A stretch of 64,000 nt of DNA, taken from NCBI GenBank assembly GCA_942492425.1, contig CALOEQ010000016.1, positions 43,156-107,155 on the forward strand, written 5' to 3'. This document shows, one piece after another, positions 45,693 to 63,222 of this stretch. This DNA comes from an uncultured Flavobacteriaceae bacterium (GTDB lineage: Bacteria > Bacteroidota > Bacteroidia > Flavobacteriales > Flavobacteriaceae). A program made the position numbers and the translations under genes. Under the pieces are notes generated by a model. It did no database searches. It was not told the origin of the DNA and worked only from the letters and a program-made list of their open reading frames with translations. The first letter of the stretch is position 1, and each line of letters starts with the position of its first letter.

Positions 45693-47816
45693 ATGCACAA
45701 AATACTCGTAGCGCTGATCACAGCTTTTGCCCTGTTTGTTTCCTGCGGAAATCCTAAAAAAGACGCCATGGACCAAGAACACAAGTACACCAACAACCTG
45801 ATCCACGAAACCAGCCCCTATCTGTTGCAACACGCGCACAACCCAGTAGATTGGCATCCCTGGAACGAAGAGACCCTCGAACTGGCGAAAAAAGAGGACA
45901 AGCTCCTGCTGATCTCAATTGGGTATGCCGCCTGTCACTGGTGCCATGTCATGGAACATGAGAGTTTTGAAGATTCCGCGGTCGCTGCAGTCATGAACGA
46001 GCATTTCATCAACGTGAAAGTGGATCGCGAAGAACGACCCGATGTGGATCAAATCTATATGAACGCTGTTCAGCTGCTCACAGGCCGCGGTGGATGGCCC
46101 CTGAATTGTGTGGCCCTCCCTGACGGACGTCCCATCTGGGGAGGCACCTACTTCCCCAAAGAGAATTGGATGAATGCCCTGAATCAGCTATCCGATCTGT
46201 ACGCGAACGACCGGGAAAAAGCACTGGACTATGCCGAAAAGCTAACCCAGGGTGTGCAACAATCGGGTCTGATTGCCCTCAATGAAAAACCAGCAGATTT
46301 CTCCATGGAAGAACTTGAATTGTCGATCGAGAACTGGAAATCAAACATGGATGTCAAAAATGGAGGACGCCCGGGAGCCCCTAAGTTCCCGATGCCGGTC
46401 AACATCGAGTTCCTGCTCCGCTACGGGGCTCAGAGCCAGGACCAGGATATTCTGGACTATGTGAATACGACCCTTACCCAGATGGCTTACGGAGGCATCT
46501 TCGACCAGGTTGGAGGCGGGTTTGCCCGTTATTCGGTAGACGATCACTGGCATATACCCCATTTTGAGAAAATGCTTTACGACAATGCCCAATTGGTCTC
46601 GTTGTATTCCCTGGCATTTCAGGCCACAGGAAATCCGCTTTACAAAGAAATTGTTGAGGAAACCACAGGCTTTGTCGAGCGCGAGCTCTATGATGATAAG
46701 GGCGGCTTCTACTCTTCGCTTGACGCTGATAGTGAGGATGAAGCAGGAGAACTCGAGGAAGGCGCATTTTATGTCTGGACCAAAGAGGAGCTCCAGTCGC
46801 ATCTTGGAGAGGATTATGAGCTCTTCGCCAAATATTACAATGTAAACGGCTATGGCAAATGGGAAAAAGACCTCTATCATCTCATTCGCTCGGTTTCAGA
46901 TGAGACGTTCTGCAGGGAGAATGGCCTTGAACTCCAGGAGCTGAAGCAAAAAGCAGGGTCCTGGAAAGAGAAATTGCTCACTGAAAGGGAGAAAAGAAGC
47001 AGACCGCGTCTCGACGACAAGATCCTGACCTCCTGGAACGCGCTCATGCTGAGAGGCTATGCACAGGCTTACGCCGTATTCGGCGAGGAGCATTACCTGA
47101 AAATGGCCCTTAAGAATGCCCATTTCATCCAACGCAATATGATGCAGGAGGACGGAGGGCTCTTCAGAAATCACAAAGGTGGTAAGAGCAACCTGGATGC
47201 CTACCTCGAAGACTATGCCGCTGTTATTGAGGCATACATCGCTCTCTACGAAGTAACGCTTGACATGGGGTGGTTGCAATCGGCCAAACAATTGGCTGAC
47301 TACTGCTACGATCACTACTATGACGACGAAAGCAAAATGTTCTTTTTCACCTCTGATCGTGAAAAGAACCTGATCTCCCGCAAAGTCGAGACAGATGACA
47401 ATGTCATACCTTCTTCGAATGCCACGCTCGCTCAGAGCCTTTTCAAACTCGGGCATTACTTTGGAAACAAACATTATCTGCAAAGTGCCTCGACCATGCT
47501 GAACAACATGAAAATGAATGTGGTCGAATACGGAGCCGGTGCAGCCAAATGGCTGGGGCTCTATGCGAATTACCTGGGTGACTACTATGAAATTGCGGTC
47601 GTTGGCCCGGAAGCAAAACAACGCATCTCAGAGATCAATCGTCAGTACATTCCAAACAAGCTGATTGTCGGTAGCGAGAAAGAAAGCTCCCTGCCCTTGC
47701 TGGAATACAAATACAGTGAAAACGAGACCACGATCTATGTTTGTATCGACGGGGCGTGCAAATTACCCGTGACGGCTTCAGAAAAGGCCCTCGAACAAAT
47801 TGAAACTGCCTTTTAA
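45693..47816 (+). CDS. Thioredoxin-domain YyaL/SPATA20-like lipoprotein
   Basis: Lipobox [66 protein letters not shown]. Confidence 0.93.
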
Positions 47817-56188: not shown

Positions 56189-57139
56189 TTATACTTGTCG
56201 TTCAAATGACTCATCAATAATACCTCTCAAATGCTCGAGTAATTCCGGTGAAGGTGTTTGGTAATCCTGCAATTCGTACACCTTGCCCAAAAACTCATAT
56301 TTACCAAGACCAAATCGGTGATAAGGAAGCAACTCATAATCAATCACGTTTTTATAAGGTTTGATAAACTCCAGAACAGCGCGGACATGTCCTTCGTCCG
56401 CATTAATACCGGGTATTAGGGGTGTGCGAGTGATAAATTCCGTATTGGGAAATTTCTCATATGCTTTTTTGAAATTTTCAAGTAGCCGTTCATTACCTAC
56501 GCCCGTCCACTTTTTGTGGCGATTCGAATCCATCAATTTATTATCGTGTAGCATTAAATCAACATAAAGTAAAACTTTCTCCATGTATTCCCAGGGCACA
56601 TTTCCGGCTGTTTCAATGGCTGTATGAATGCCGCTTTCTTGAGCTCCGCGCAAAATGGCTGCAGTAAAATCGGGTTGCAACAGACACTCTCCGCCACTAA
56701 TGGTCACTCCACCACCGGTATTGCGGTACATGCTTTCGTCTTTTAATGCTTCGTCAAGCACTTCGCGTGCAGTCATTAATTTACCGAACATACCTATTGC
56801 TCCGGTAGGGCACAATTCTGCCAATTCTTCCGTACATGAGTTGGCTAAATCCCAGTTCGCTTTTACTTTATCATCATCATCTCCTTCTGATACATAAAAT
56901 GCTCCTTTGGGAAATGGTTCTTTAAGACAAACACCGCATTCTGCTGCTCCTTTGCAGAGTTTTCGACTAAAATCCAGTTCTGGTTTTGGTTTGATACTTT
57001 CGGGGTTGCTGCACCATTTGCAACGCAGGGAGCATCCTTTCACGAATACAGTGGTTCGGGTTCCGGGTCCGTCTTCTCCGCAGTATCGCTGAATATTCAG
57101 CACGCGTCCTGTTATATCTAAATAGTTTTGATCTTCCAT
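56189..57139 (-). CDS. Glycyl-radical enzyme activating protein (radical SAM, with ferredoxin-like insert)
   Basis: DGPGTRTTVFVKGCSLRCKWCSNPES (CxxxCxxC), insert CKGAAECGVC...CPTGA, GGVTISGGEC, HTAIETAG, ELLPYHRFG..KY. Confidence 0.96.
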   Translation of the reverse strand: MEDQNYLDITGRVLNIQRYCGEDGPGTRTTVFVKGCSLRCKWCSNPESIKPKPELDFSRKLCKGAAECGVCLKEPFPKGAFYVSEGDDDDKVKANWDLANSCTEELAELCPTGAIGMFGKLMTAREVLDEALKDESMYRNTGGGVTISGGECLLQPDFTAAILRGAQESGIHTAIETAGNVPWEYMEKVLLYVDLMLHDNKLMDSNRHKKWTGVGNERLLENFKKAYEKFPNTEFITRTPLIPGINADEGHVRAVLEFIKPYKNVIDYELLPYHRFGLGKYEFLGKVYELQDYQTPSPELLEHLRGIIDESFERQV

Positions 57140-57149
57140 GATTCTCGTA

Positions 57150-58301
57150 TTAAGCTCCTGTGTAAATTCCCAATGCCCGTGCTACTCTCATAAATTCATT
57201 ATCTGTGCTCACGGTGCGTTTTTTATTCAGCGCATCAATTAGCGGTACAAAGTCAATATGAGGCGGTACAAATGCCGCCAAGGTGCCAAACTTGTTATCC
57301 TCAAGCGCTTTTACAGAAGCAGCACCATAGGCCAGTCCCAGTTGACGGTCAACCGCTGTGGCCTCACCGCCACGAGTCCACGGACCGAGCACCAGTGGAA
57401 AAACCTCATCTGACATTAACTGTTGCAAAGCATTCGCCAGTGTTTTGGCTGCTTTCCCGCTCTTGTTGATGACAAATTCATTACTTTCTTCTGTAGCCAG
57501 CGGGGACAGCGCCTTTTTCAAATCGTCAAGGGTATCACTTGTAACTCCGGGAAGATTTGTGAACGAACTCCCTTCTGCAACCACCACGAGGGCATAAGAG
57601 TGATCAGACGTAATCCTGGATTGAAGTTGTTTCGCAAGTTTATTTACATCACATGGGAATTCGGGCAATACGACTGCATCAGACAAGACAGCAATGCCGC
57701 TTTGCAATGCCAACCAGCCAGCCTGTGATCCAAGGACTTCAACGATCCCGATTTTTTTTGATGAAATGGCTCCTTGTTTCGCCCTGTCGAGCATTTCGAT
57801 ACTAAAGCTAAGGGCAGTATTGAAACCAAAAGCCACAGCAGTGGACGCCATATCATTTTCAACCGTTCTTGGAATGCATATTGATTGCAAACCCTTGAGG
57901 TTCAATTTGTGCAGGATACTTAATCCCCTACCCATCATGATGGCGATTACCGCATCGATTTTTTCTTTTTTCAGATTTTCCAGAAGGGTATCAGACATGT
58001 CCACTTCTTCCACCATTTCCAGCTCGTTTATGGTCCGTACATTGAAGGGGTCGACAGTTGCTGCTGTACCCATGACATCGCTCCCCGTTGGGTTTAGTTT
58101 TTCTATGATATCAGGCCCCAGGTCAATTAATCCATCGTTCGGATATTTTTCAGGAAAGAGCAACCCTTCGAAACCGTCAAGTATACCTACTACTTCCCAA
58201 CCTGCTTTGTGTGCTGAAATAGCAGCTCCCATAATCATGGAATTGATGCCGGGAGTATACCCTTCCCCAATGGCGATAGCTATTTTCTTTATGGTTTTCA
58301 T
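57150..58301 (-). CDS. 6-phosphofructokinase-fold protein with degenerate catalytic motifs
   Basis: Collinear with PfkA group III (PG.N, G..DGFEGL, P.T.END, GF.TA, EV.G..AGWLAL, VVAEG, RGG..TA.DR.L), but GGD, GGDG, TIDND and MGR are altered. Confidence 0.85.
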   Translation of the reverse strand: MKTIKKIAIAIGEGYTPGINSMIMGAAISAHKAGWEVVGILDGFEGLLFPEKYPNDGLIDLGPDIIEKLNPTGSDVMGTAATVDPFNVRTINELEMVEEVDMSDTLLENLKKEKIDAVIAIMMGRGLSILHKLNLKGLQSICIPRTVENDMASTAVAFGFNTALSFSIEMLDRAKQGAISSKKIGIVEVLGSQAGWLALQSGIAVLSDAVVLPEFPCDVNKLAKQLQSRITSDHSYALVVVAEGSSFTNLPGVTSDTLDDLKKALSPLATEESNEFVINKSGKAAKTLANALQQLMSDEVFPLVLGPWTRGGEATAVDRQLGLAYGAASVKALEDNKFGTLAAFVPPHIDFVPLIDALNKKRTVSTDNEFMRVARALGIYTGA

Positions 58302-58324: not shown

Positions 58325-58362
58325 AAAGATACAGTCGAGGGAAAACCCTCGACTGTATCTTT
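58325..58362. other. Perfect 17-bp intergenic hairpin directly after the GRE stop
   Basis: AAAGATACAGTCGAGGG-AAAA-CCCTCGACTGTATCTTT. Confidence 0.9.
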
Positions 58363-58367
58363 TGATT

Positions 58368-60842
58368 CTATTTAAATGTTTGCAACGTACGCTCAATGAC
58401 TTCGTTCTGAACGCCCACATCAAGTTTGGTAAAGAAGGCACTGAAACCGGCTACACGAACCACAAGGTCTCTGTAATTCTCAGGATGCTTCTGTGCATCT
58501 CTAAGCATATCGGTATCCAGACAGTTGAACTGAATGTGATAGCCGCCATTGTCGAACAAGGTTTTTACCAGACCCAAAATTTGATCTCTACCTTTTCGTG
58601 ATTTCAATTGGTCGGGTTGAACTTTCATGTTCATATGTGTGGCCGTCCATCTTACAGGATCGCCACCCATGGCAGCCGACATCACCAAAGCAGTTGGTCC
58701 ATTCACATCTGTACCTGGCATGGCCGACAGGCTGCCATCGGTAAGTGCCTGTCCGGCTTTTTTACCGGTAGGCAATGCACCGGTCACTTTACCCATCAGG
58801 TTGTGGATACTCTTGGTGTATTGGTCGAGTGATGTTTTGTACAGCTCGTCCTTACCGAGATAATTACCTCCGCCATCTACACTGTTGAAGGTATCCAGGA
58901 TACTATCATTGACTCTTCTCACCATCATATCCGCTTCATGGATATTATTTCCATACTTAGGCGCATCCACATACACCATCTTATGAACACGCTCATGCTC
59001 TCCTTCAAAGTTGGCGGCCAGTGCTGCCATTAATTCTTTCCAGCTCAGTTTCTTTTTATCGTATATCAAGTCCTTGACAGCCATTAAGCCATTCGCAGCA
59101 TCCACCTGTCCTACGGAGATTTGGGCTATGGTATAGTAGTTGGCCCCACCATGCCACACATCCAAACCGGATTCAAGGCAACCAATAGTCAGGCAAGAAC
59201 GCCACGTTGCAGGCAGGTATTCTGCCGCCAGCATACTGGCAATCCATGCTCCTCTACGAAGTACATCTTCACAGTATTGCAGTTGTTTTTCAAAGGCGGC
59301 ATACACATCCTCAAACGTTTTAAATGTTTCAGGATTGCCTGTTTTGGGACCTACCTGCTTTTGGGTACGCGGATCAAATCCATCGTTCAATGTTAATTCC
59401 AGTACTTTACCCAAATTTGGCTGACCTTCCACGGGGTGTCCGGTCTCGTAAGGAATATAGCTGCCCACACAGGCGCCTATACAGGTACGTCTGGCTTTTT
59501 CAAGCGACAACTTACCTGCTTTTGATTCAGGCCAGTTGTATAAGGCCCGTTTCACCATGGCCTCACCACTCACAAACTGCGGCATACCGATACCGGTGCC
59601 TATGACATCCAATACTTTCTCCAGCAACTTGCCGGGAGTTTTTGGCGTATGGCACAGCGTCAATGGCGGCTGCGGCAAGTGCAGATAATTGCTGGCATCG
59701 AGAATTACAAAGTCCATTTCGGCATGGGCATGCTCGCCATTTATATCATAACCTCCCAAGGTAATACTTTGTCCAAGGTCGGCCGAATTTTGCAATGCAA
59801 CCTTCTCTCCAAAGTAATAGCCGATCTCATTGAGTTTAAGAATCAGGTTTCTGAACATGAAGGTGGCATCCTCATAGGTAATCAGCCCGGCTTCTTTATC
59901 GCGCTGATAAAAGGGCTCCAGGTTTTGACCCAGGTACGCTTCAGAATATCCACAACCCACCTGTTCCATTTCGGCTATGATGTGGCAGAAGAAGTGTGCC
60001 TGCATGGCTTCACGTAGGTTTCGGGCCGGGTGCTCAGGAACACGCTCACAGGTTTCGGCCAGCGAAATCAATTCAGCTTTACGTGTTGGATTTGTTTCCT
60101 TTTCTGCCATTTCGCGCGCTTTTGCCGCATAGCGGTTAGCATAGCGCACAATGGCCTTCATGGTAATTAATGAGGCTTCATAGAAATAAAATTTCTCCTT
60201 GTTTGGCAAACGCATATCCAACTCATACATGCGTTCTTCCACATATTTAATCATACTGCCGAGGCCTTCATTATAAACCTTGGGGTAATTGAGGTTACCG
60301 CCACCTGCCGGCCAGTCAAAGAAGCTAATTACATAGCCTGAATCATAAATCGGTTTCGGATCAACGCCATAACGTTTTTCGTAAATTTCCAGAACCCGTG
60401 GTACCTGCGAACGTTCTGTCCAGTAGTCGAGCACCCATTGGTTGGCTTCCCGTTCTTCGGGTGTTTTTGAGTTTTCGATGGTGTTCTCTTCAATCATCCA
60501 GCCTACCTGCCATTCGGGGTAGGTGTAGATGGCATTGAGTGAGCCCGCCATAGCGCCAACCAGCAAGTTGTCGTCAATGTAAATCTTTTTGGTGTCGAGC
60601 AATTCTGCATTGAATTTGGCCCTGCGGATAATGTTGGGATAACCCTCAGTTTCCTGATACACCTTTTTCATGACGATCACTCGCTCAAAATCAATGGGAG
60701 GAGGTGTACTTCTCATCAATTCTTTGAGTACATCAATACGTTCATCGCTCGCATTCACTTTGGCTGTGCCTGCGTAAGGCTTGCCTTCTAATTTGCGTCC
60801 CGGCAATGTATAATATGGAATACCTGTTTCTGTAGTTTTCAT
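58368..60842 (-). CDS. Glycyl radical enzyme (PFL2/decarboxylase-type superfamily member, uncharacterised subclass)
   Basis: C-terminal GGYHIQFN...LRDAQKHPENYRDLVVRVAGFSAFF (Gly799), QSITLGG, LPQP, Cys loop CIGACVGS (Cys458), TDGSLSAMPGTDVNGPTA. Confidence 0.96.
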   Translation of the reverse strand: MKTTETGIPYYTLPGRKLEGKPYAGTAKVNASDERIDVLKELMRSTPPPIDFERVIVMKKVYQETEGYPNIIRRAKFNAELLDTKKIYIDDNLLVGAMAGSLNAIYTYPEWQVGWMIEENTIENSKTPEEREANQWVLDYWTERSQVPRVLEIYEKRYGVDPKPIYDSGYVISFFDWPAGGGNLNYPKVYNEGLGSMIKYVEERMYELDMRLPNKEKFYFYEASLITMKAIVRYANRYAAKAREMAEKETNPTRKAELISLAETCERVPEHPARNLREAMQAHFFCHIIAEMEQVGCGYSEAYLGQNLEPFYQRDKEAGLITYEDATFMFRNLILKLNEIGYYFGEKVALQNSADLGQSITLGGYDINGEHAHAEMDFVILDASNYLHLPQPPLTLCHTPKTPGKLLEKVLDVIGTGIGMPQFVSGEAMVKRALYNWPESKAGKLSLEKARRTCIGACVGSYIPYETGHPVEGQPNLGKVLELTLNDGFDPRTQKQVGPKTGNPETFKTFEDVYAAFEKQLQYCEDVLRRGAWIASMLAAEYLPATWRSCLTIGCLESGLDVWHGGANYYTIAQISVGQVDAANGLMAVKDLIYDKKKLSWKELMAALAANFEGEHERVHKMVYVDAPKYGNNIHEADMMVRRVNDSILDTFNSVDGGGNYLGKDELYKTSLDQYTKSIHNLMGKVTGALPTGKKAGQALTDGSLSAMPGTDVNGPTALVMSAAMGGDPVRWTATHMNMKVQPDQLKSRKGRDQILGLVKTLFDNGGYHIQFNCLDTDMLRDAQKHPENYRDLVVRVAGFSAFFTKLDVGVQNEVIERTLQTFK

Positions 60843-60887: not shown

Positions 60888-61079
60888 CTAAGCGCGAACT
60901 GTCAGCCAAGGCACCAGCGACTTTCGGCAGTTTGGCCATGGTGTGCTTTCAGCCGGTGTAGTTCTCATAATTTCTTTTAAGGTGTCAATGCAAGCAGTAT
61001 CTGCGTTTACTTTTGCTTTAGAAATCTTTTTCGGACGAGCAACTAAACCTGCTTCTAAATTTTGATCTTTTTATGTCAT
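60888..61079 (-). pseudogene. Remnant of a second, diverged glycyl radical enzyme gene
   Basis: ATG-ACA-TAA, then an open frame containing AKVNADTACIDTLKEIMRTTP, 14/21 identical to GRE residues 27-47 (AKVNASDERIDVLKELMRSTP). Confidence 0.7.
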
Positions 61080-62163: not shown

Positions 62164-63222
62164 TTGAAGGATATGTTTACTCGACTTACAAACCCAATTC
62201 TCCTGGTCCTATTTTTGCTGACCGGAATATCTTTTGCACAGGGCACTTCAGACATCCTGTTTTCTGAACCTGCTGCCAACTCCTCTGACCCAGCGGATCT
62301 CTTGACCCTTAGACTTGAAATCCCCATTAAGACCCTGAGAAAAGAAACCAACGACAGCACCTTTACGTCGAGCACGATTTATTTTAAAGAACAGAGCACC
62401 TGGGACTCTCTGCCTGTTGAATTGAGAACCCGCGGAGAATTCAGAAGGAAGAAGTGCATATTTCCTCCGGTTAAAATCAAGTTTTCCAAGAAAGACATTG
62501 AAAACACATTGTTTGACAGCAACAGGAAGCTGAAACTGGTGGTTCCCTGTCGACATGAGGAGGCTAAAAACGACAATGTTGTCAAGGAGTATTTGGCCTA
62601 TAAATTGTATGAACCCGTTACTCCATACCATTTTAAGACGCGGCTTGTCAACCTCGAATGGTCCCAAAAAGCTTCCAAGAAGAAATCCGGTCACGAATTG
62701 AAGGCCATTTTGCTGGAGGACCTGGATCACCTGGCTGATAGAGTGGGTGGCGATGCCTACGATCGAAACGTCCATCCTATGCGGCTGGATACTTTGAACG
62801 GGATTCGAAATGCCTTTTTTCAGTACATGATCGGCAATGCAGATTATTCGGTAACGCAGGGTCACAACTACAAGATCATCTACCACAATGAAAAATTTCT
62901 GGTCATCCCCTATGACTTTGACCTGGCGGGTTTGGTCAATGCCGATTACGGGAAGTCATCGGACGTTCAAAACCTGCGTTTCATGGGAGACCAACCCGCC
63001 GACAGAATCTATCGGGACTTTCCTCGTAATCCGGCTCTGGTAGAGCAAGTTCGGCAGGAATACCTGAGCAACAGAGAAGCCATTTTTCTTGCACTTCAAA
63101 ATACCAAAGGCTTCTTTGACAATGAAGATGAATACGCAGAAGCGGAACTTTACCTCACAAAATTCTACCAGGTTCTGGAAGATGACAAGAAATTCAACAG
63201 GGTAATAATCAATAGCAAATGA
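62164..63222 (+). CDS. Secreted hypothetical protein with CotH-like atypical kinase motifs
   Basis: Signal peptide, RGEFRRKKC.FPP.KIKF, KLVVPC, EYLAYKLY, FQYMIGNADY, HNYK, IPYDFDLAG. Confidence 0.65.
   Translation: MKDMFTRLTNPILLVLFLLTGISFAQGTSDILFSEPAANSSDPADLLTLRLEIPIKTLRKETNDSTFTSSTIYFKEQSTWDSLPVELRTRGEFRRKKCIFPPVKIKFSKKDIENTLFDSNRKLKLVVPCRHEEAKNDNVVKEYLAYKLYEPVTPYHFKTRLVNLEWSQKASKKKSGHELKAILLEDLDHLADRVGGDAYDRNVHPMRLDTLNGIRNAFFQYMIGNADYSVTQGHNYKIIYHNEKFLVIPYDFDLAGLVNADYGKSSDVQNLRFMGDQPADRIYRDFPRNPALVEQVRQEYLSNREAIFLALQNTKGFFDNEDEYAEAELYLTKFYQVLEDDKKFNRVIINSK

What the first reader, a model, noticed from the sequence alone, without database searches (positions are those of the whole stretch)
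58368..60842. Glycyl radical enzyme with a non-canonical active site (GACVGS Cys loop), probably an uncharacterised subclass
Seen: intact Gly loop (RVAGF, Gly799) and a Cys loop reading R-T-C454-I-G-A-C458-V-G-S. The widely conserved GRxDQY segment reads AYLGQN. Established: PFL has an adjacent Cys-Cys pair; the eliminases (CutC, glycerol/propanediol dehydratases, HypD, IslA) have GCVE with a catalytic Glu two residues after the thiyl Cys; HPAD has C-x-E; BSS-type enzymes have LCMSP. This protein has Gly at that position and matches none of them. No small Fe-S subunit gene (HpdC or BssB/C type) is visible nearby. Inference: a GRE doing unassigned chemistry, possibly decarboxylase-like. It sits in a flavobacterium that also encodes an aerobic heme-copper oxidase, although GREs are oxygen-labile.
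Basis: partly seen in the sequence, partly recalled or inferred. Interest (0 to 1): 0.8.

Follow-up and report, generated by a model that had tools for sequence, protein, structure and literature searches.

The report
Unassigned glycyl radical enzyme cassette
This is a real, strongly conserved three-gene set (a glycyl radical enzyme, a degenerate phosphofructokinase-like protein and an activating enzyme) that is found in many bacterial phyla, fits no characterised enzyme class, and so probably carries out anaerobic radical chemistry that has not yet been described.

Summary
Window 58368-60842 (minus strand) encodes an 824-aa glycyl radical enzyme (GRE) with an intact Gly loop (G799) and thiyl Cys (C458). 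[quoted passage not shown]

It scores below every curated GRE model and is about 30% identical to the nearest solved structure, HypD. A June 2026 GRE review does not mention it.

1. An invariant second Cys (C297) sits on strand beta-1, where eliminases carry their catalytic Asp or His.
2. Five active-site positions are invariant Gly, which implies an enlarged pocket.
3. A PFK-fold gene lies between the GRE and the activase. It lacks the Mg-ATP Asp103, Arg171, Arg243 and His249.
4. The order GRE, hairpin, PFK-like, activase recurs at 69% identity or more in at least 202 species-level genomes from about 10 phyla.

The PFK-like stop codon usually overlaps the activase start. About half of the related loci also carry a DszB-like desulfinase, a CoA-disulfide reductase with a rhodanese domain, rhodaneses and SulP/SBF transporters.

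C454 is not conserved. Nothing supports decarboxylase chemistry.

Best reading: a new GRE class with a two-thiol active site and a non-kinase PFK-fold partner of the activase. Its substrate is unknown, anionic and possibly an organosulfur compound.

The parts
58368..60842 (-). Glycyl radical enzyme, 824 aa. Key codons: C297 59952-59954, C458 59469-59471, G460 59463-59465, K677 58812-58814, G799 58446-58448.
   Evidence: Pfam PFL-like plus Gly_radical. The motifs GCG (beta-1), GACVGS, WPxGGGN and RVAGFSAFF are each present in 84 of 84 family members.
58325..58362 (-). Perfect 17-bp stem-loop in the 66-nt spacer between the GRE stop codon and the PFK-like start codon. No U-tract follows it.
   Evidence: A strong hairpin sits at the same position in 83 related loci. 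Median z is -4.9 against shuffles and the median uninterrupted stem is 14 bp. The stem sequence differs between clades.
57150..58301 (-). PFK-fold accessory protein, 383 aa, with a degenerate kinase site.
   Evidence: Pfam PF00365, E 2.3e-54. It is below all NCBIfam PFK cut-offs. Across 64 orthologues, relative to E. coli PfkA, D103 becomes G/A/M/V, R171 becomes E/A/S/K, R243 becomes F/Y and H249 becomes P, and the effector-site arginines R21, R25 and R54 are lost. G124 becomes an invariant R. D127(E/D), D129, R252 and K162 are kept.
56189..57139 (-). GRE-activating radical SAM enzyme, 316 aa. CX3CX2C at C36/C40/C43, plus an extra Cys-rich insert.
   Evidence: TIGR02494 at 309 bits against a cut-off of 174. 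Pfam Radical_SAM and Fer4_12. Cys positions. The gene starts 10 nt after the PFK-like stop codon.
60948..61046 (-). Remnant of about 30 codons that resembles a GRE N-terminus, just upstream of the present start codon.
   Evidence: tblastn against P0006 residues 14-43 gives 60% identity. The peptide reads RPKKISKAKVNADTACIDTLKEIMRTTPAE.

Best explanation
The window carries the minimal form of a widespread, uncharacterised GRE system. The transcription order is GRE, a stabilising hairpin, a PFK-fold protein, then the activase.

Shown:
- The radical machinery is intact: the Gly fingerprint, the thiyl Cys458 and a dedicated radical SAM activase.
- The acid/base set of eliminases is gone. The Glu of CXE and its His partner are both Gly.
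- The PFL catalytic set is gone: C418, R176, R435 and W333.
- An invariant Cys297 occupies the beta-1 position of the catalytic Asp/His.
- S353, Q474 and K677 occupy the positions that bind the substrate carboxylate in HypD.
- The PFK-fold gene is always present. It lacks the Mg-ATP and fructose-6-phosphate arginine/histidine residues. Its stop codon usually overlaps the activase start codon.

Inferred mechanism:
1. Under anoxia the activase, working with the PFK-fold protein as a non-kinase partner, installs the Gly799 radical. The partner would dock on the activase or sense a ligand.
2. Cys458 thiyl abstracts a hydrogen from a fairly bulky anionic metabolite, which is anchored by K677, Q474 and S353 in a Gly-lined pocket.
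3. The substrate radical fragments by redox-neutral C-X cleavage.
4. The Cys297 thiol, not a carboxylate or imidazole, supplies the proton or hydrogen atom on the opposite face.

Gene neighbourhoods in about half of the related loci suggest that the substrate or product is an organosulfur anion, with sulfinate or sulfite then passed on. Those neighbourhoods hold a DszB-like desulfinase with its catalytic Cys, His and Arg conserved, a CoA-disulfide/persulfide reductase with a rhodanese domain, rhodaneses, SulP/SBF transporters and outer-membrane-like proteins.
For: Identity and distinctness.

Active-site mapping onto HypD, using residue roles from PMC7077986 and the alignment, and onto E. coli PflB and YbiW:
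- C297 = HypD D278 = GDH H164 = YbiW H282 = PFL A272.
- G460 = Glu of CXE.
- G182 = HypD H160.
- G296 = HypD W277.
- G357 = PFL W333.
- G181 = PFL R176.
- S353 = HypD S334, Q474 = HypD Y450 = PFL R435, K677 = HypD T645.
- These residues are invariant in the 15-sequence alignment. The four motifs tested are present in 84 of 84 members.

Distribution and gene order:
- 202 species-representative genomes; 80 loci fetched at 69% identity or more, from about 10 phyla.
- The order GRE, PFK-like, activase holds in essentially every locus with enough downstream DNA.
- The sister clade (P0121-like, 47% identical) has a GRE and an activase but no PFK-like gene.

PFK-fold degeneracy.

Coupling to Fe-S proteins:
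- The PFK-like stop and activase start overlap in 30 of 42 scorable loci, 24 of them by the 4-nt ATGA overlap.
- The GRE to PFK-like spacer is 55-360 nt in the loci examined and holds a strong hairpin.
- PFK-like paralogues are each followed by a roughly 380-aa Fe-S protein, several with overlapping stop and start codons.

Sulfur neighbourhood, counted over 85 loci:
- DszB-like in 45, CoADR-rhodanese in 43, SBF in 39, SulP in 27, rhodanese in 26. Their positions vary.
- DszB C27, H60 and R70 are conserved.
Against: - No biochemical data exist for this family. No usable 3D model was obtained (AF2 mean pLDDT 44), so all residue placements rest on sequence alignment to solved relatives.
- The window itself, and about half of the related loci, carry none of the sulfur genes within 10 kb. 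That link may reflect co-regulation under anoxic or sulfidic conditions rather than one shared pathway.
- Cys297 could be structural, or could have a different role.
- The PFK-fold protein keeps G11, T125(S), D127(E), D129 and R252. Most orthologues also keep R72. A divergent phosphotransfer activity is therefore not excluded.
- The sulfonate-binding Arg/Gln pair of IslA-type lyases probably aligns with P178 and G182 (my estimate from residue-number offsets, not a direct alignment). If so, any sulfonate pocket differs from the known one.
Confidence: 0.4

Rival explanations
1. RNR-like reductase. Cys297 on beta-1 plays the part of the bottom-face Cys of ribonucleotide reductases. The enzyme would carry out a net reduction, for example dehydroxylation or dephosphorylation of a phosphorylated or nucleotide-like substrate. 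It would then be re-reduced by formate or by a thiol/disulfide system such as the CoADR-rhodanese protein or the Cys-rich 380-aa Fe-S protein.
For: - There is an invariant Cys on the first barrel strand opposite the thiyl Cys.
- The pocket is enlarged, with a Gly-rich WPxGGGN loop and K677, which would suit phosphate binding.
- A pyridine-nucleotide disulfide reductase lies immediately upstream in many loci.
- Cys-rich Fe-S partner proteins are present.
- The partner protein derives from a fold that binds nucleotides and sugar phosphates.
Against: - Only one extra invariant Cys is seen.
- There is no sequence relationship to NrdD beyond the shared superfamily fold.
- CoADR is absent from the window and from half of the loci.
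- No formate-handling genes appear among the recurrent neighbour clusters that were annotated.
- The placement of Cys297 is by alignment only.
Confidence: 0.15
2. PFL-like C-C lyase with a 'split' cysteine pair. Cys297 from beta-1 replaces PFL Cys418 as the thiyl that adds to a carbonyl and carries an acyl-enzyme intermediate, which is then passed to CoA.
For: - C297 aligns with PFL Ala272 and A457 with PFL Cys418, an apparent swap of where the thiol sits.
- The sister clades read G-C-V-S-T, close to PFL C-C-V-S-P, and share the beta-1 Cys.
- A sister locus encodes a thiolase with its canonical motifs (my reading: NRQCGSS, NEAFA, GHPVGNSG, LCTGGG) and a TRAP transporter.
- A CoA-disulfide reductase is a frequent neighbour.
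Against: - PFL R176, R435 and W333 are replaced by Gly, Gln and Gly.
- The PFL model scores 81 bits against a cut-off of 994.
- No pta/ackA, focA or formate dehydrogenase genes appear among the recurrent neighbour clusters that were annotated.
- The distance between C297 and C458 is unknown.
Confidence: 0.12
3. Kinase-coupled sugar-phosphate pathway. The PFK-like protein is an active, unusual phosphotransferase of PPi or ATP type. It makes a phosphorylated (or sulfonated) sugar that the GRE isomerises or cleaves, by analogy with YbiW/PflD 'anhydroglycolysis' or SqiK in sulfoglycolysis.
For: - PF00365 membership.
- The best PDB hit is a PFK whose motifs I read as PPi-type (GGDD and PKTIDND).
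- R124 is invariant, at the position where I recall PPi-PFKs carry Lys124.
- D127(E), D129, T125(S), R252 and K162 are kept.
- YbiW and PflD act on sugar 6-phosphates.
- A PfkA-family sulfofructose kinase (SqiK) exists.
- GH63-like and Zn-ADH genes occur in 11-14 loci.
Against: - Asp103 (the Mg ligand) is lost in 64 of 64 orthologues. R171, R243 and H249 are also lost, and the window's own copy lacks R72 as well.
- YbiW and PflD keep CXE, whereas this GRE does not.
- The PFK-like gene is translationally coupled to Fe-S proteins, and paralogues pair with a non-GRE Fe-S protein. That arrangement looks like a protein partnership rather than a pathway kinase.
Confidence: 0.13
4. Aryl- or alkyl-acetate decarboxylase.
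For: - The IAD and HPAD models give partial matches of 406 and 335 bits.
- AAD works without a small subunit.
- K677, Q474 and S353 could hold a carboxylate.
Against: - Scores are lower than for the eliminase models and far below the cut-offs of 1100 and 1150.
- HPAD and IAD use a Glu two residues after the Cys, which is absent here.
- No aromatic-acid genes appear among the recurrent neighbours.
Confidence: 0.07

Closest known systems
trans-4-hydroxy-L-proline dehydratase HypD (PDB 6VXC) and other GRE 1,2-eliminases and isomerases (GDH, CutC, IslA, HpsG, YbiW, PflD)
   Same: - Best sequence matches: HypD E 2e-115, GDH E 2e-104.
- Same 10-stranded barrel family and same Gly and Cys loops.
- Same type of ferredoxin-insert activase; the best activase model is the HpsH type.
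- S353 matches HypD Ser334.
   Different: - The CXE Glu becomes Gly460, its His partner becomes Gly182, and the catalytic Asp278/His164 becomes Cys297.
- Several bulky pocket residues are Gly.
- Scores are less than half of each equivalog cut-off.
- None of these enzymes has a PFK-fold partner.
Pyruvate formate-lyase PflB / TdcE
   Same: - GRE fold.
- Val follows the thiyl Cys (C-V).
- Two cysteines are probably present in the active site.
   Different: - The second Cys is not adjacent on the loop (A457 aligns with PFL C418). It comes from strand beta-1.
- R176, R435 and W333 are absent.
- TIGR01255 scores 81 bits against a cut-off of 994.
Class III (anaerobic) ribonucleotide reductase NrdD
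   Same: By analogy only, from my own knowledge: a glycyl radical, a thiyl Cys on a finger loop, and a second Cys on the first barrel strand facing a phosphate-bearing substrate.
   Different: - No detectable sequence relationship.
- No NrdD domains were matched.
- A reductant requirement is unknown.
Multisubunit GREs (HPAD gamma; BSS/MASS beta, gamma, delta)
   Same: A GRE that comes with an obligatory extra gene in the same operon.
   Different: - The known accessory subunits are small Fe-S or rubredoxin-like proteins.
- Here the partner is a 383-aa PFK-fold protein without Cys motifs, and it is coupled to the activase gene rather than to the GRE gene.
PfkA-family phosphofructokinases (nearest PDB hit 44xa; the SqiK sulfofructose kinase is also PF00365)
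   Same: - PF00365 fold across the full length.
- D127/D129-type acidic pair and the R252-G-G motif.
- The 'AGWL' motif is shared with the top PDB hit.
   Different: - The GGD(G/D) Mg-binding Asp is lost, as are R171, R243 and H249, and the allosteric-site residues R21, R25 and R54.
- There is an insert of about 40 aa after the AEG motif.
- It is below all curated PFK cut-offs.

Membership tests
Glycyl radical enzyme superfamily (PFL-like branch) | PFL-like barrel domain plus a C-terminal glycyl radical domain with the fingerprint RVxG[FWY]x6-8[FL]x4Qx2[IV]x2R | tested here: met
   PF02901 E 3e-137 and PF01228 E 1.7e-25. R796-VAG799F...L807...Q812..V815..R818 matches the fingerprint quoted.
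Glycyl radical enzyme superfamily (PFL-like branch) | Conserved thiyl Cys at the tip of the Cys loop | tested here: met
   C458 aligns with HypD C434, GDH C433, PFL C419 and YbiW C441. Present in 84 of 84 family members.
Glycyl radical enzyme superfamily (PFL-like branch) | Dedicated radical SAM activase with CX3CX2C encoded nearby | tested here: met
   ORF 56189-57139. TIGR02494 at 309 bits against a cut-off of 174. C36/C40/C43.
Glycyl radical enzyme superfamily (PFL-like branch) | Formation of a stable glycyl radical (EPR) | not testable with these tools
   Needs anaerobic expression and EPR.
GRE 1,2-eliminases and isomerases | CXE motif: a Glu two residues after the thiyl Cys that hydrogen-bonds the substrate | tested here: not met
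   The family reads C458-V-G460, invariant. The review states that all characterised eliminases and isomerases keep CXE.
GRE 1,2-eliminases and isomerases | Score above a curated equivalog cut-off (HypD, CutC, HpsG/HpfG, PflD-type) | tested here: not met
   461/1100, 352/1050, 377/1000, 360/1000 and 315/1109. It is also below the PFL2-3 subfamily cut-off, 436/678.
Pyruvate / 2-ketobutyrate formate-lyase | Adjacent Cys-Cys pair, plus the carboxylate-binding Arg176 and Arg435 | tested here: not met
   A457-C458. R176 aligns with G181, R435 with Q474 and W333 with G357. TIGR01255 at 81 bits against a cut-off of 994.
GRE decarboxylases (HPAD, IAD, PAD, AAD) | Equivalog-level similarity; Glu at C+2 (HPAD, IAD); Fe-S small subunit (HPAD) | tested here: not met
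   IAD 406/1100 and HPAD 335/1150, both partial coverage. No Glu at C+2. No small-subunit gene in the window.
X-succinate synthases | Fe-S beta/gamma subunits and the fumarate-binding site | tested here: inconclusive
   BSS alpha and MasD are weaker PDB hits, at 262 and 248 bits. No beta/gamma genes lie in the window. Residue-level comparison was not done.
6-phosphofructokinase (for ORF 57150-58301) | PF00365 fold | tested here: met
   E 2.3e-54 across the whole profile.
6-phosphofructokinase (for ORF 57150-58301) | Catalytic and binding residues: G-G-D103 (Mg-ATP), R72, R171, and R162/R243/H249/R252 (fructose-6-phosphate). Residue roles are from my knowledge of E. coli and Bacillus PfkA. | tested here: not met
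   - D103 becomes G/A/M/V in 64 of 64 orthologues.
- R171 becomes E/A/S/K.
- R243 becomes F/Y.
- H249 becomes P.
- The window copy has R72 replaced by T.
- Kept: D127(E), D129, R252 and K162.
- It is below all NCBIfam PFK cut-offs.

The most novel reading that the evidence does not exclude
This would be a PFL-type glycyl radical enzyme that works with two spatially separated cysteines, either as an RNR-style reductase or with an acyl- or thio-enzyme intermediate. Installation of its radical would be controlled by a PFK-derived pseudo-kinase bound to the activase. That would add a new GRE class and the first non-Fe-S accessory protein of a GRE activase. It would give widespread bacteria from lineages with aerobic members in soils and sediments a dedicated anoxic pathway, possibly for organosulfur compounds.
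Probability: 0.2. Interest if true: 0.9.

Novelty: new variant of a known kind. Interest (0 to 1): 0.72.

Why it matters
- GRE classes are defined by a handful of active-site solutions: CXE eliminases and isomerases, the Cys-Cys pair of PFL, decarboxylases and X-succinate synthases. A family with neither CXE nor a Cys-Cys pair, but with an invariant Cys on beta-1, points to chemistry outside the present classification.
- The family is unusually conserved (69% identity or more across about 10 phyla) and widespread (at least 202 species-level genomes, mostly environmental metagenome-assembled genomes). Its reaction is therefore likely to matter in anoxic soil and sediment metabolism.
- The strictly linked PFK-fold protein would be a new kind of GRE or activase accessory factor. 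It is also a clear case of automatic mis-annotation, because every database name for it is '6-phosphofructokinase'.
- Two cultured carriers make the question testable: Eudoraea adriatica DSM 19308 and Flavihumibacter profundi KCTC 62290.

Tried and rejected
- AlphaFold2 model of the GRE from the 15-sequence family alignment. Mean pLDDT was 44 and pTM 0.30, so it was unusable. No fold search was run on it, and pocket residues were mapped by alignment instead.
- Literature. Seven full-text searches (GRE with phosphofructokinase/PFK, desulfinase, CoA-disulfide reductase/rhodanese, Sulfomarinibacter, Acidobacteria/Planctomycetes), plus reading the 2026 GRE review and searching the 2024 AARE paper, found no description of this family.
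- Riboswitch or regulatory RNA upstream. Rfam found only the two tRNAs and sub-threshold noise.
- PFK-like/activase gene fusions as 'Rosetta stone' evidence. Four of six apparent fusions were artefacts of my ORF caller, which extended the activase frame through GC-rich DNA. The other two (L035, L057) are in-frame in the assemblies, but I suspect single-base errors. I did not use them.
Rejected, because it is Ala in 7 of 84 members.
- Accessory sulfur and Fe-S genes in the window. tblastn found none.
- Horizontal transfer signal from base composition. There is no clear GC anomaly.
- Sigma-70 promoter scan. Not above chance.
- A full tree or sequence-similarity network with all characterised GREs was not built, because most of their sequences were not retrievable here. 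Curated HMM scores, PDB hits and the 50%-identity representative search were used instead.
Full report
**1. What is there**

Three co-directional ORFs lie on the minus strand:
- An 824-aa protein at 60842-58368.
- A 383-aa protein at 58301-57150.
- A 316-aa protein at 57139-56189.

Pfam assigns them as PFL-like plus Gly_radical, PFK, and Radical_SAM plus Fer4_12. The third passes the NCBIfam model for GRE-activating proteins, TIGR02494, at 309 bits against a cut-off of 174. It has CX3CX2C at C36/C40/C43.

The Gly-domain fingerprint given in the 2026 review is matched exactly.

Beyond two tRNA genes lie COX3, COX4_pro and UbiA-family genes, the last of which I read as heme O synthase. The oxidase remark is therefore correct.

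**2. It is not any characterised GRE**

- Against NCBIfam, the GRE is far below every equivalog cut-off: HypD 461/1100, IAD 406/1100, HpsG 377/1000, CutC 352/1050, HPAD 335/1150, PflD-type 315/1109 and PFL 81/994. It is also below the broad PFL2-3 subfamily cut-off, 436/678.
- The best solved structures are HypD (E 2e-115) and glycerol dehydratase (E 2e-104).
- An exhaustive HMMER search of 1.84 billion cluster representatives found the nearest full-length non-family representatives at 47% and 44% identity, and the rest at 40% or less.
- The ten nearest that were scanned also fail every curated cut-off.
- The June 2026 review of the superfamily (PMC13450708) lists all known classes. It states that all eliminases and isomerases keep the CXE motif, and that only PFL and TdcE have two cysteines on the loop. 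It does not describe this family or any PFK-associated GRE.
- Seven full-text searches found nothing.

**3. Active-site anatomy by alignment**

I aligned the protein with E. coli PflB, YbiW and PflD, taken from the MG1655 record. I also used the HMMER alignments to HypD and GDH. The alignment is trustworthy because it puts PFL C418, C419, G734, W333, R435 and R176, and YbiW C441 and E443, in the expected columns. The HypD chain numbering (offset +20) reproduces W277, D278, F152, R156, H160, S334, D339, F340, Y450 and T645 exactly as described in PMC7077986.

The mapping is:

| This enzyme | Equivalent position |
|---|---|
| C458 | thiyl Cys |
| A457 | PFL C418 |
| G460 | Glu of CXE |
| G182 | HypD His160 (partner of that Glu) |
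| G181 | PFL R176 |
| G296 | HypD W277 |
| C297 | HypD D278 = GDH H164 = YbiW H282 = PFL A272 |
| G357 | PFL W333 |
| S353 | HypD S334 |
| Q474 | HypD Y450 = PFL R435 |
| K677 | HypD T645 |

Three conclusions follow:
- The acid/base apparatus of the eliminases and the pyruvate site of PFL are both absent.
- Five pocket positions are Gly, which implies a larger cavity.
- A Ser/Gln/Lys trio sits where HypD holds its substrate carboxylate, and an invariant Cys flanked by glycines sits where the eliminases have their catalytic acid.

In a 15-sequence family alignment all these residues are invariant. In 84 family members from the fetched loci, the motifs GCG (beta-1), GACVGS, WPxGGGN and RVAGFSAFF are each present 84 of 84 times.

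The beta-1 Cys and the loss of the Glu are shared with more distant unassigned clades, whose Cys loops read CVST, CVQS/T or CVGT. K677 and the ARR motif are shared only with the two nearest, P0121 and P0122.

**4. Distribution and conserved gene order**

A pattern scan of one genome per species (GTDB r232) found 202 genomes encoding a relative. The best 80 loci are 69-95% identical to the window protein. Their records are labelled:
- Flavobacteriaceae and other Bacteroidota.
- Acidobacteriota.
- Planctomycetota.
- Verrucomicrobiota.
- Chloroflexota.
- Alpha-, Beta-, Gamma- and 'Delta'-proteobacteria.
- Calditrichia.
- Nitrospiraceae.
- Hydrogenedentes.
- Aminicenantes.

Two cultured strains are included, Eudoraea adriatica DSM 19308 and Flavihumibacter profundi KCTC 62290.

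In essentially every locus with enough downstream DNA the order is GRE, PFK-like, activase. Three loci have the activase before the PFK-like gene and two have an insertion. Loci of the 47%-identical sister clade have a GRE and an activase but no PFK-like gene. The PFK-fold gene is therefore specific to the GACVGS family.

**5. The PFK-fold protein is not a canonical kinase**

The motif replacements are seen independently in the tool's own alignments to PDB PFKs.

| PfkA residue | In this family |
|---|---|
| Asp103 (Mg-ATP) | G/A/M/V in all orthologues |
| Gly104 | R/Q/K |
| Arg171 | E/A/S/K |
| Arg243 | F/Y |
| His249 | P |
| Effector-site Arg21, Arg25, Arg54 | lost |
| Gly124 | invariant Arg |
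| G11, T125(S), D127(E/D), D129, K/R162, R252 | kept |

The top PDB hit carries motifs I read as PPi-type (GGDD and PKTIDND), and I recall that PPi-PFKs have Lys at position 124. The window copy also lacks Arg72. All curated PFK models are failed. Every database name for these proteins is '6-phosphofructokinase', which is probably wrong.

**6. The PFK-fold gene is coupled to Fe-S proteins, not to the GRE**

- The spacer from the GRE to the PFK-like gene is 66 nt in the window and 55-360 nt in the related loci examined. It always holds a strong stem-loop immediately after the GRE stop codon.
  - In the window this is a perfect 17-bp stem at 58325-58362 with no U-tract.
  - Over 83 loci, the first 75 nt after the stop have a median MFE of -30.5 kcal/mol and a median z of -4.9 against shuffles. 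In 96% of loci z is below -2, and the median uninterrupted stem is 14 bp.
  - The stem sequences differ between clades.
- In contrast, the PFK-like stop and the activase start overlap in 30 of 42 scorable loci, 24 of them by the 4-nt ATGA overlap. In 11 more they are 0-20 nt apart; the window has 10 nt.
- Many loci carry one or two additional modules. Each is a PFK-like paralogue (45-54% identical) followed, usually with an overlapping start codon, by a 375-400-aa Fe-S protein. That protein has an N-terminal region that looks winged-helix-like to me, a Cys-rich middle and a C-terminal 2x[4Fe-4S] domain.
- The same Fe-S protein directly follows the activase in at least 8 loci.
- A homologue (26% identity over the full length, E 4e-27) sits next to a thiolase with its canonical motifs in the sister-clade locus.

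I infer that the PFK-fold protein is a protein partner of the activase and of related Fe-S proteins, and that the hairpin sets a high ratio of GRE to partner proteins.

**7. Wider neighbourhood**

I clustered all ORFs of 85 loci. Recurrent neighbours, at variable positions on either side, are:
- A cytoplasmic DszB-like protein in 45 loci. PDB 2DE2 matches at E 1.7e-11 over the full length, with DszB Cys27, His60 and Arg70 conserved.
- A CoA-disulfide reductase fused to a rhodanese domain in 43 loci, often ending 50-140 nt upstream of the GRE.
- SBF transporters in 39 loci.
- Sigma-54 activators with GAF or PAS domains in 29 loci.
- SulP transporters in 27 loci.
- Single-domain rhodaneses in 26 loci.
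- An unassigned signal-peptide protein, possibly outer-membrane, in 20 loci.
- A small ferredoxin in 14 loci.
- SAM synthetase in 13 loci.
- GH63-like plus Zn-ADH genes in 11-14 loci.

This is a clear sulfur and anion-transport theme. It is compatible with an inducible pathway for an imported organosulfur anion that yields sulfinate, sulfite or persulfide.

The window has none of these genes, and about half of the loci lack them within 10 kb. They are therefore accessory, or they may reflect co-regulation under anoxic, sulfidic conditions.

**8. Mechanism**

Shown:
- Intact radical machinery.
- Absence of the known catalytic solutions.
- A second invariant thiol at the catalytic-acid position.
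- An anion-binding trio.
- A Gly-lined pocket.
- An obligatory non-canonical PFK-fold gene coupled to the activase.

Inferred as most likely (confidence about 0.4):
1. The activase, together with the PFK-fold partner, installs the Gly799 radical.
2. Cys458 thiyl abstracts a hydrogen from a bulky anionic substrate held by K677, Q474 and S353.
3. The radical fragments in a redox-neutral C-X cleavage.
4. Cys297 delivers the proton or hydrogen atom that a Glu, Asp or His provides elsewhere.
5. The sulfur genes process the product.

Rivals are:
- An RNR-style reductase (0.15).
- A PFL-like acyl-enzyme lyase with a split Cys pair (0.12).
- A true kinase-coupled sugar-phosphate pathway (0.13).

None can be excluded without biochemistry.

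**9. Limits**

- The only structure prediction attempted failed (pLDDT 44), because the permitted alignment was shallow and too uniform.
- All pocket assignments are by homology.
- Sequences of several characterised GREs (IslA, HPAD, PAD, AAD, BSS) were not available for residue-level comparison.
- Many related loci are metagenome-assembled genomes in which I suspect occasional frameshifts.

**10. Verdict**

The finding is real and better than first described. It is a distinct, widespread and highly conserved GRE class with a two-thiol active site and a PFK-derived accessory protein. Its function is unknown. I rate it a new variant of a known kind, with interest 0.72.

Noticed in passing
window 58325-58362 (minus strand); same position in L001-L085: A strong stem-loop sits immediately after the GRE stop codon in the spacer before the PFK-like gene. 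It is present in nearly all related loci across phyla, with different stem sequences. Median z is -4.9 and the median uninterrupted stem is 14 bp. It usually has no U-tract. It is probably an intercistronic mRNA-stabilising or attenuating element.
   Followed up: partly
window 60948-61046 (minus strand): A remnant of about 30 codons resembling a GRE N-terminus (RPKKISKAKVNADTACIDTLKEIMRTTPAE) lies 105-200 nt upstream of the present GRE start codon. This suggests that an older copy was replaced by recombination or transfer. Unlike its closest relative L006, the window locus also lacks all accessory sulfur genes.
   Followed up: partly
L018 14807-17127 and 19007-21360; also L021, L022, L042, L066, L044, L047, L049, L058: Extra modules occur one to two times per locus. 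Each is a PFK-like paralogue whose stop codon overlaps the start of a 375-400-aa Fe-S protein with no known family. That protein has a Cys-rich DCVCK...KRCGF...GGCxC region and a 2x[4Fe-4S] C-terminus. The same Fe-S protein follows the activase in L004, L016, L030, L055, L063, L070, L079 and L080.
   Followed up: partly
L002 4905-6098 (and 44 other loci): A cytoplasmic DszB-like protein has the desulfinase catalytic Cys, His and Arg conserved. It is often arranged with a rhodanese and a CoA-disulfide reductase-rhodanese fusion next to the GRE cassette. This may be a module for anaerobic sulfinate, thiosulfonate or thiosulfate handling.
   Followed up: partly
L086 2747-15970; L087: The sister GRE clade (47% identical, Cys loop GCVST, same beta-1 Cys) sits with a thiolase that keeps its canonical motifs, a homologue of the 380-aa Fe-S protein, a sigma-54 activator, a rhodanese and a TRAP transporter. 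It has no PFK-like gene.
   Followed up: partly
L035 12485-14248; L057 12538-14691: The PFK-like and activase reading frames are fused in-frame in two metagenome assemblies. I suspect assembly indels, but a real fusion would support a physical partnership.
   Followed up: no
window 62164-63222 (+): A 352-aa ORF has a weak CotH kinase-like domain (E 9e-6). It lies upstream of and divergent from the GRE cassette, next to small ORFs with no family match.
   Followed up: no
window 45693-47816 (+): A 707-aa protein combines a thioredoxin-like DUF255 domain with a GlcNAc 2-epimerase-like domain. It appears unrelated to the finding.
   Followed up: no
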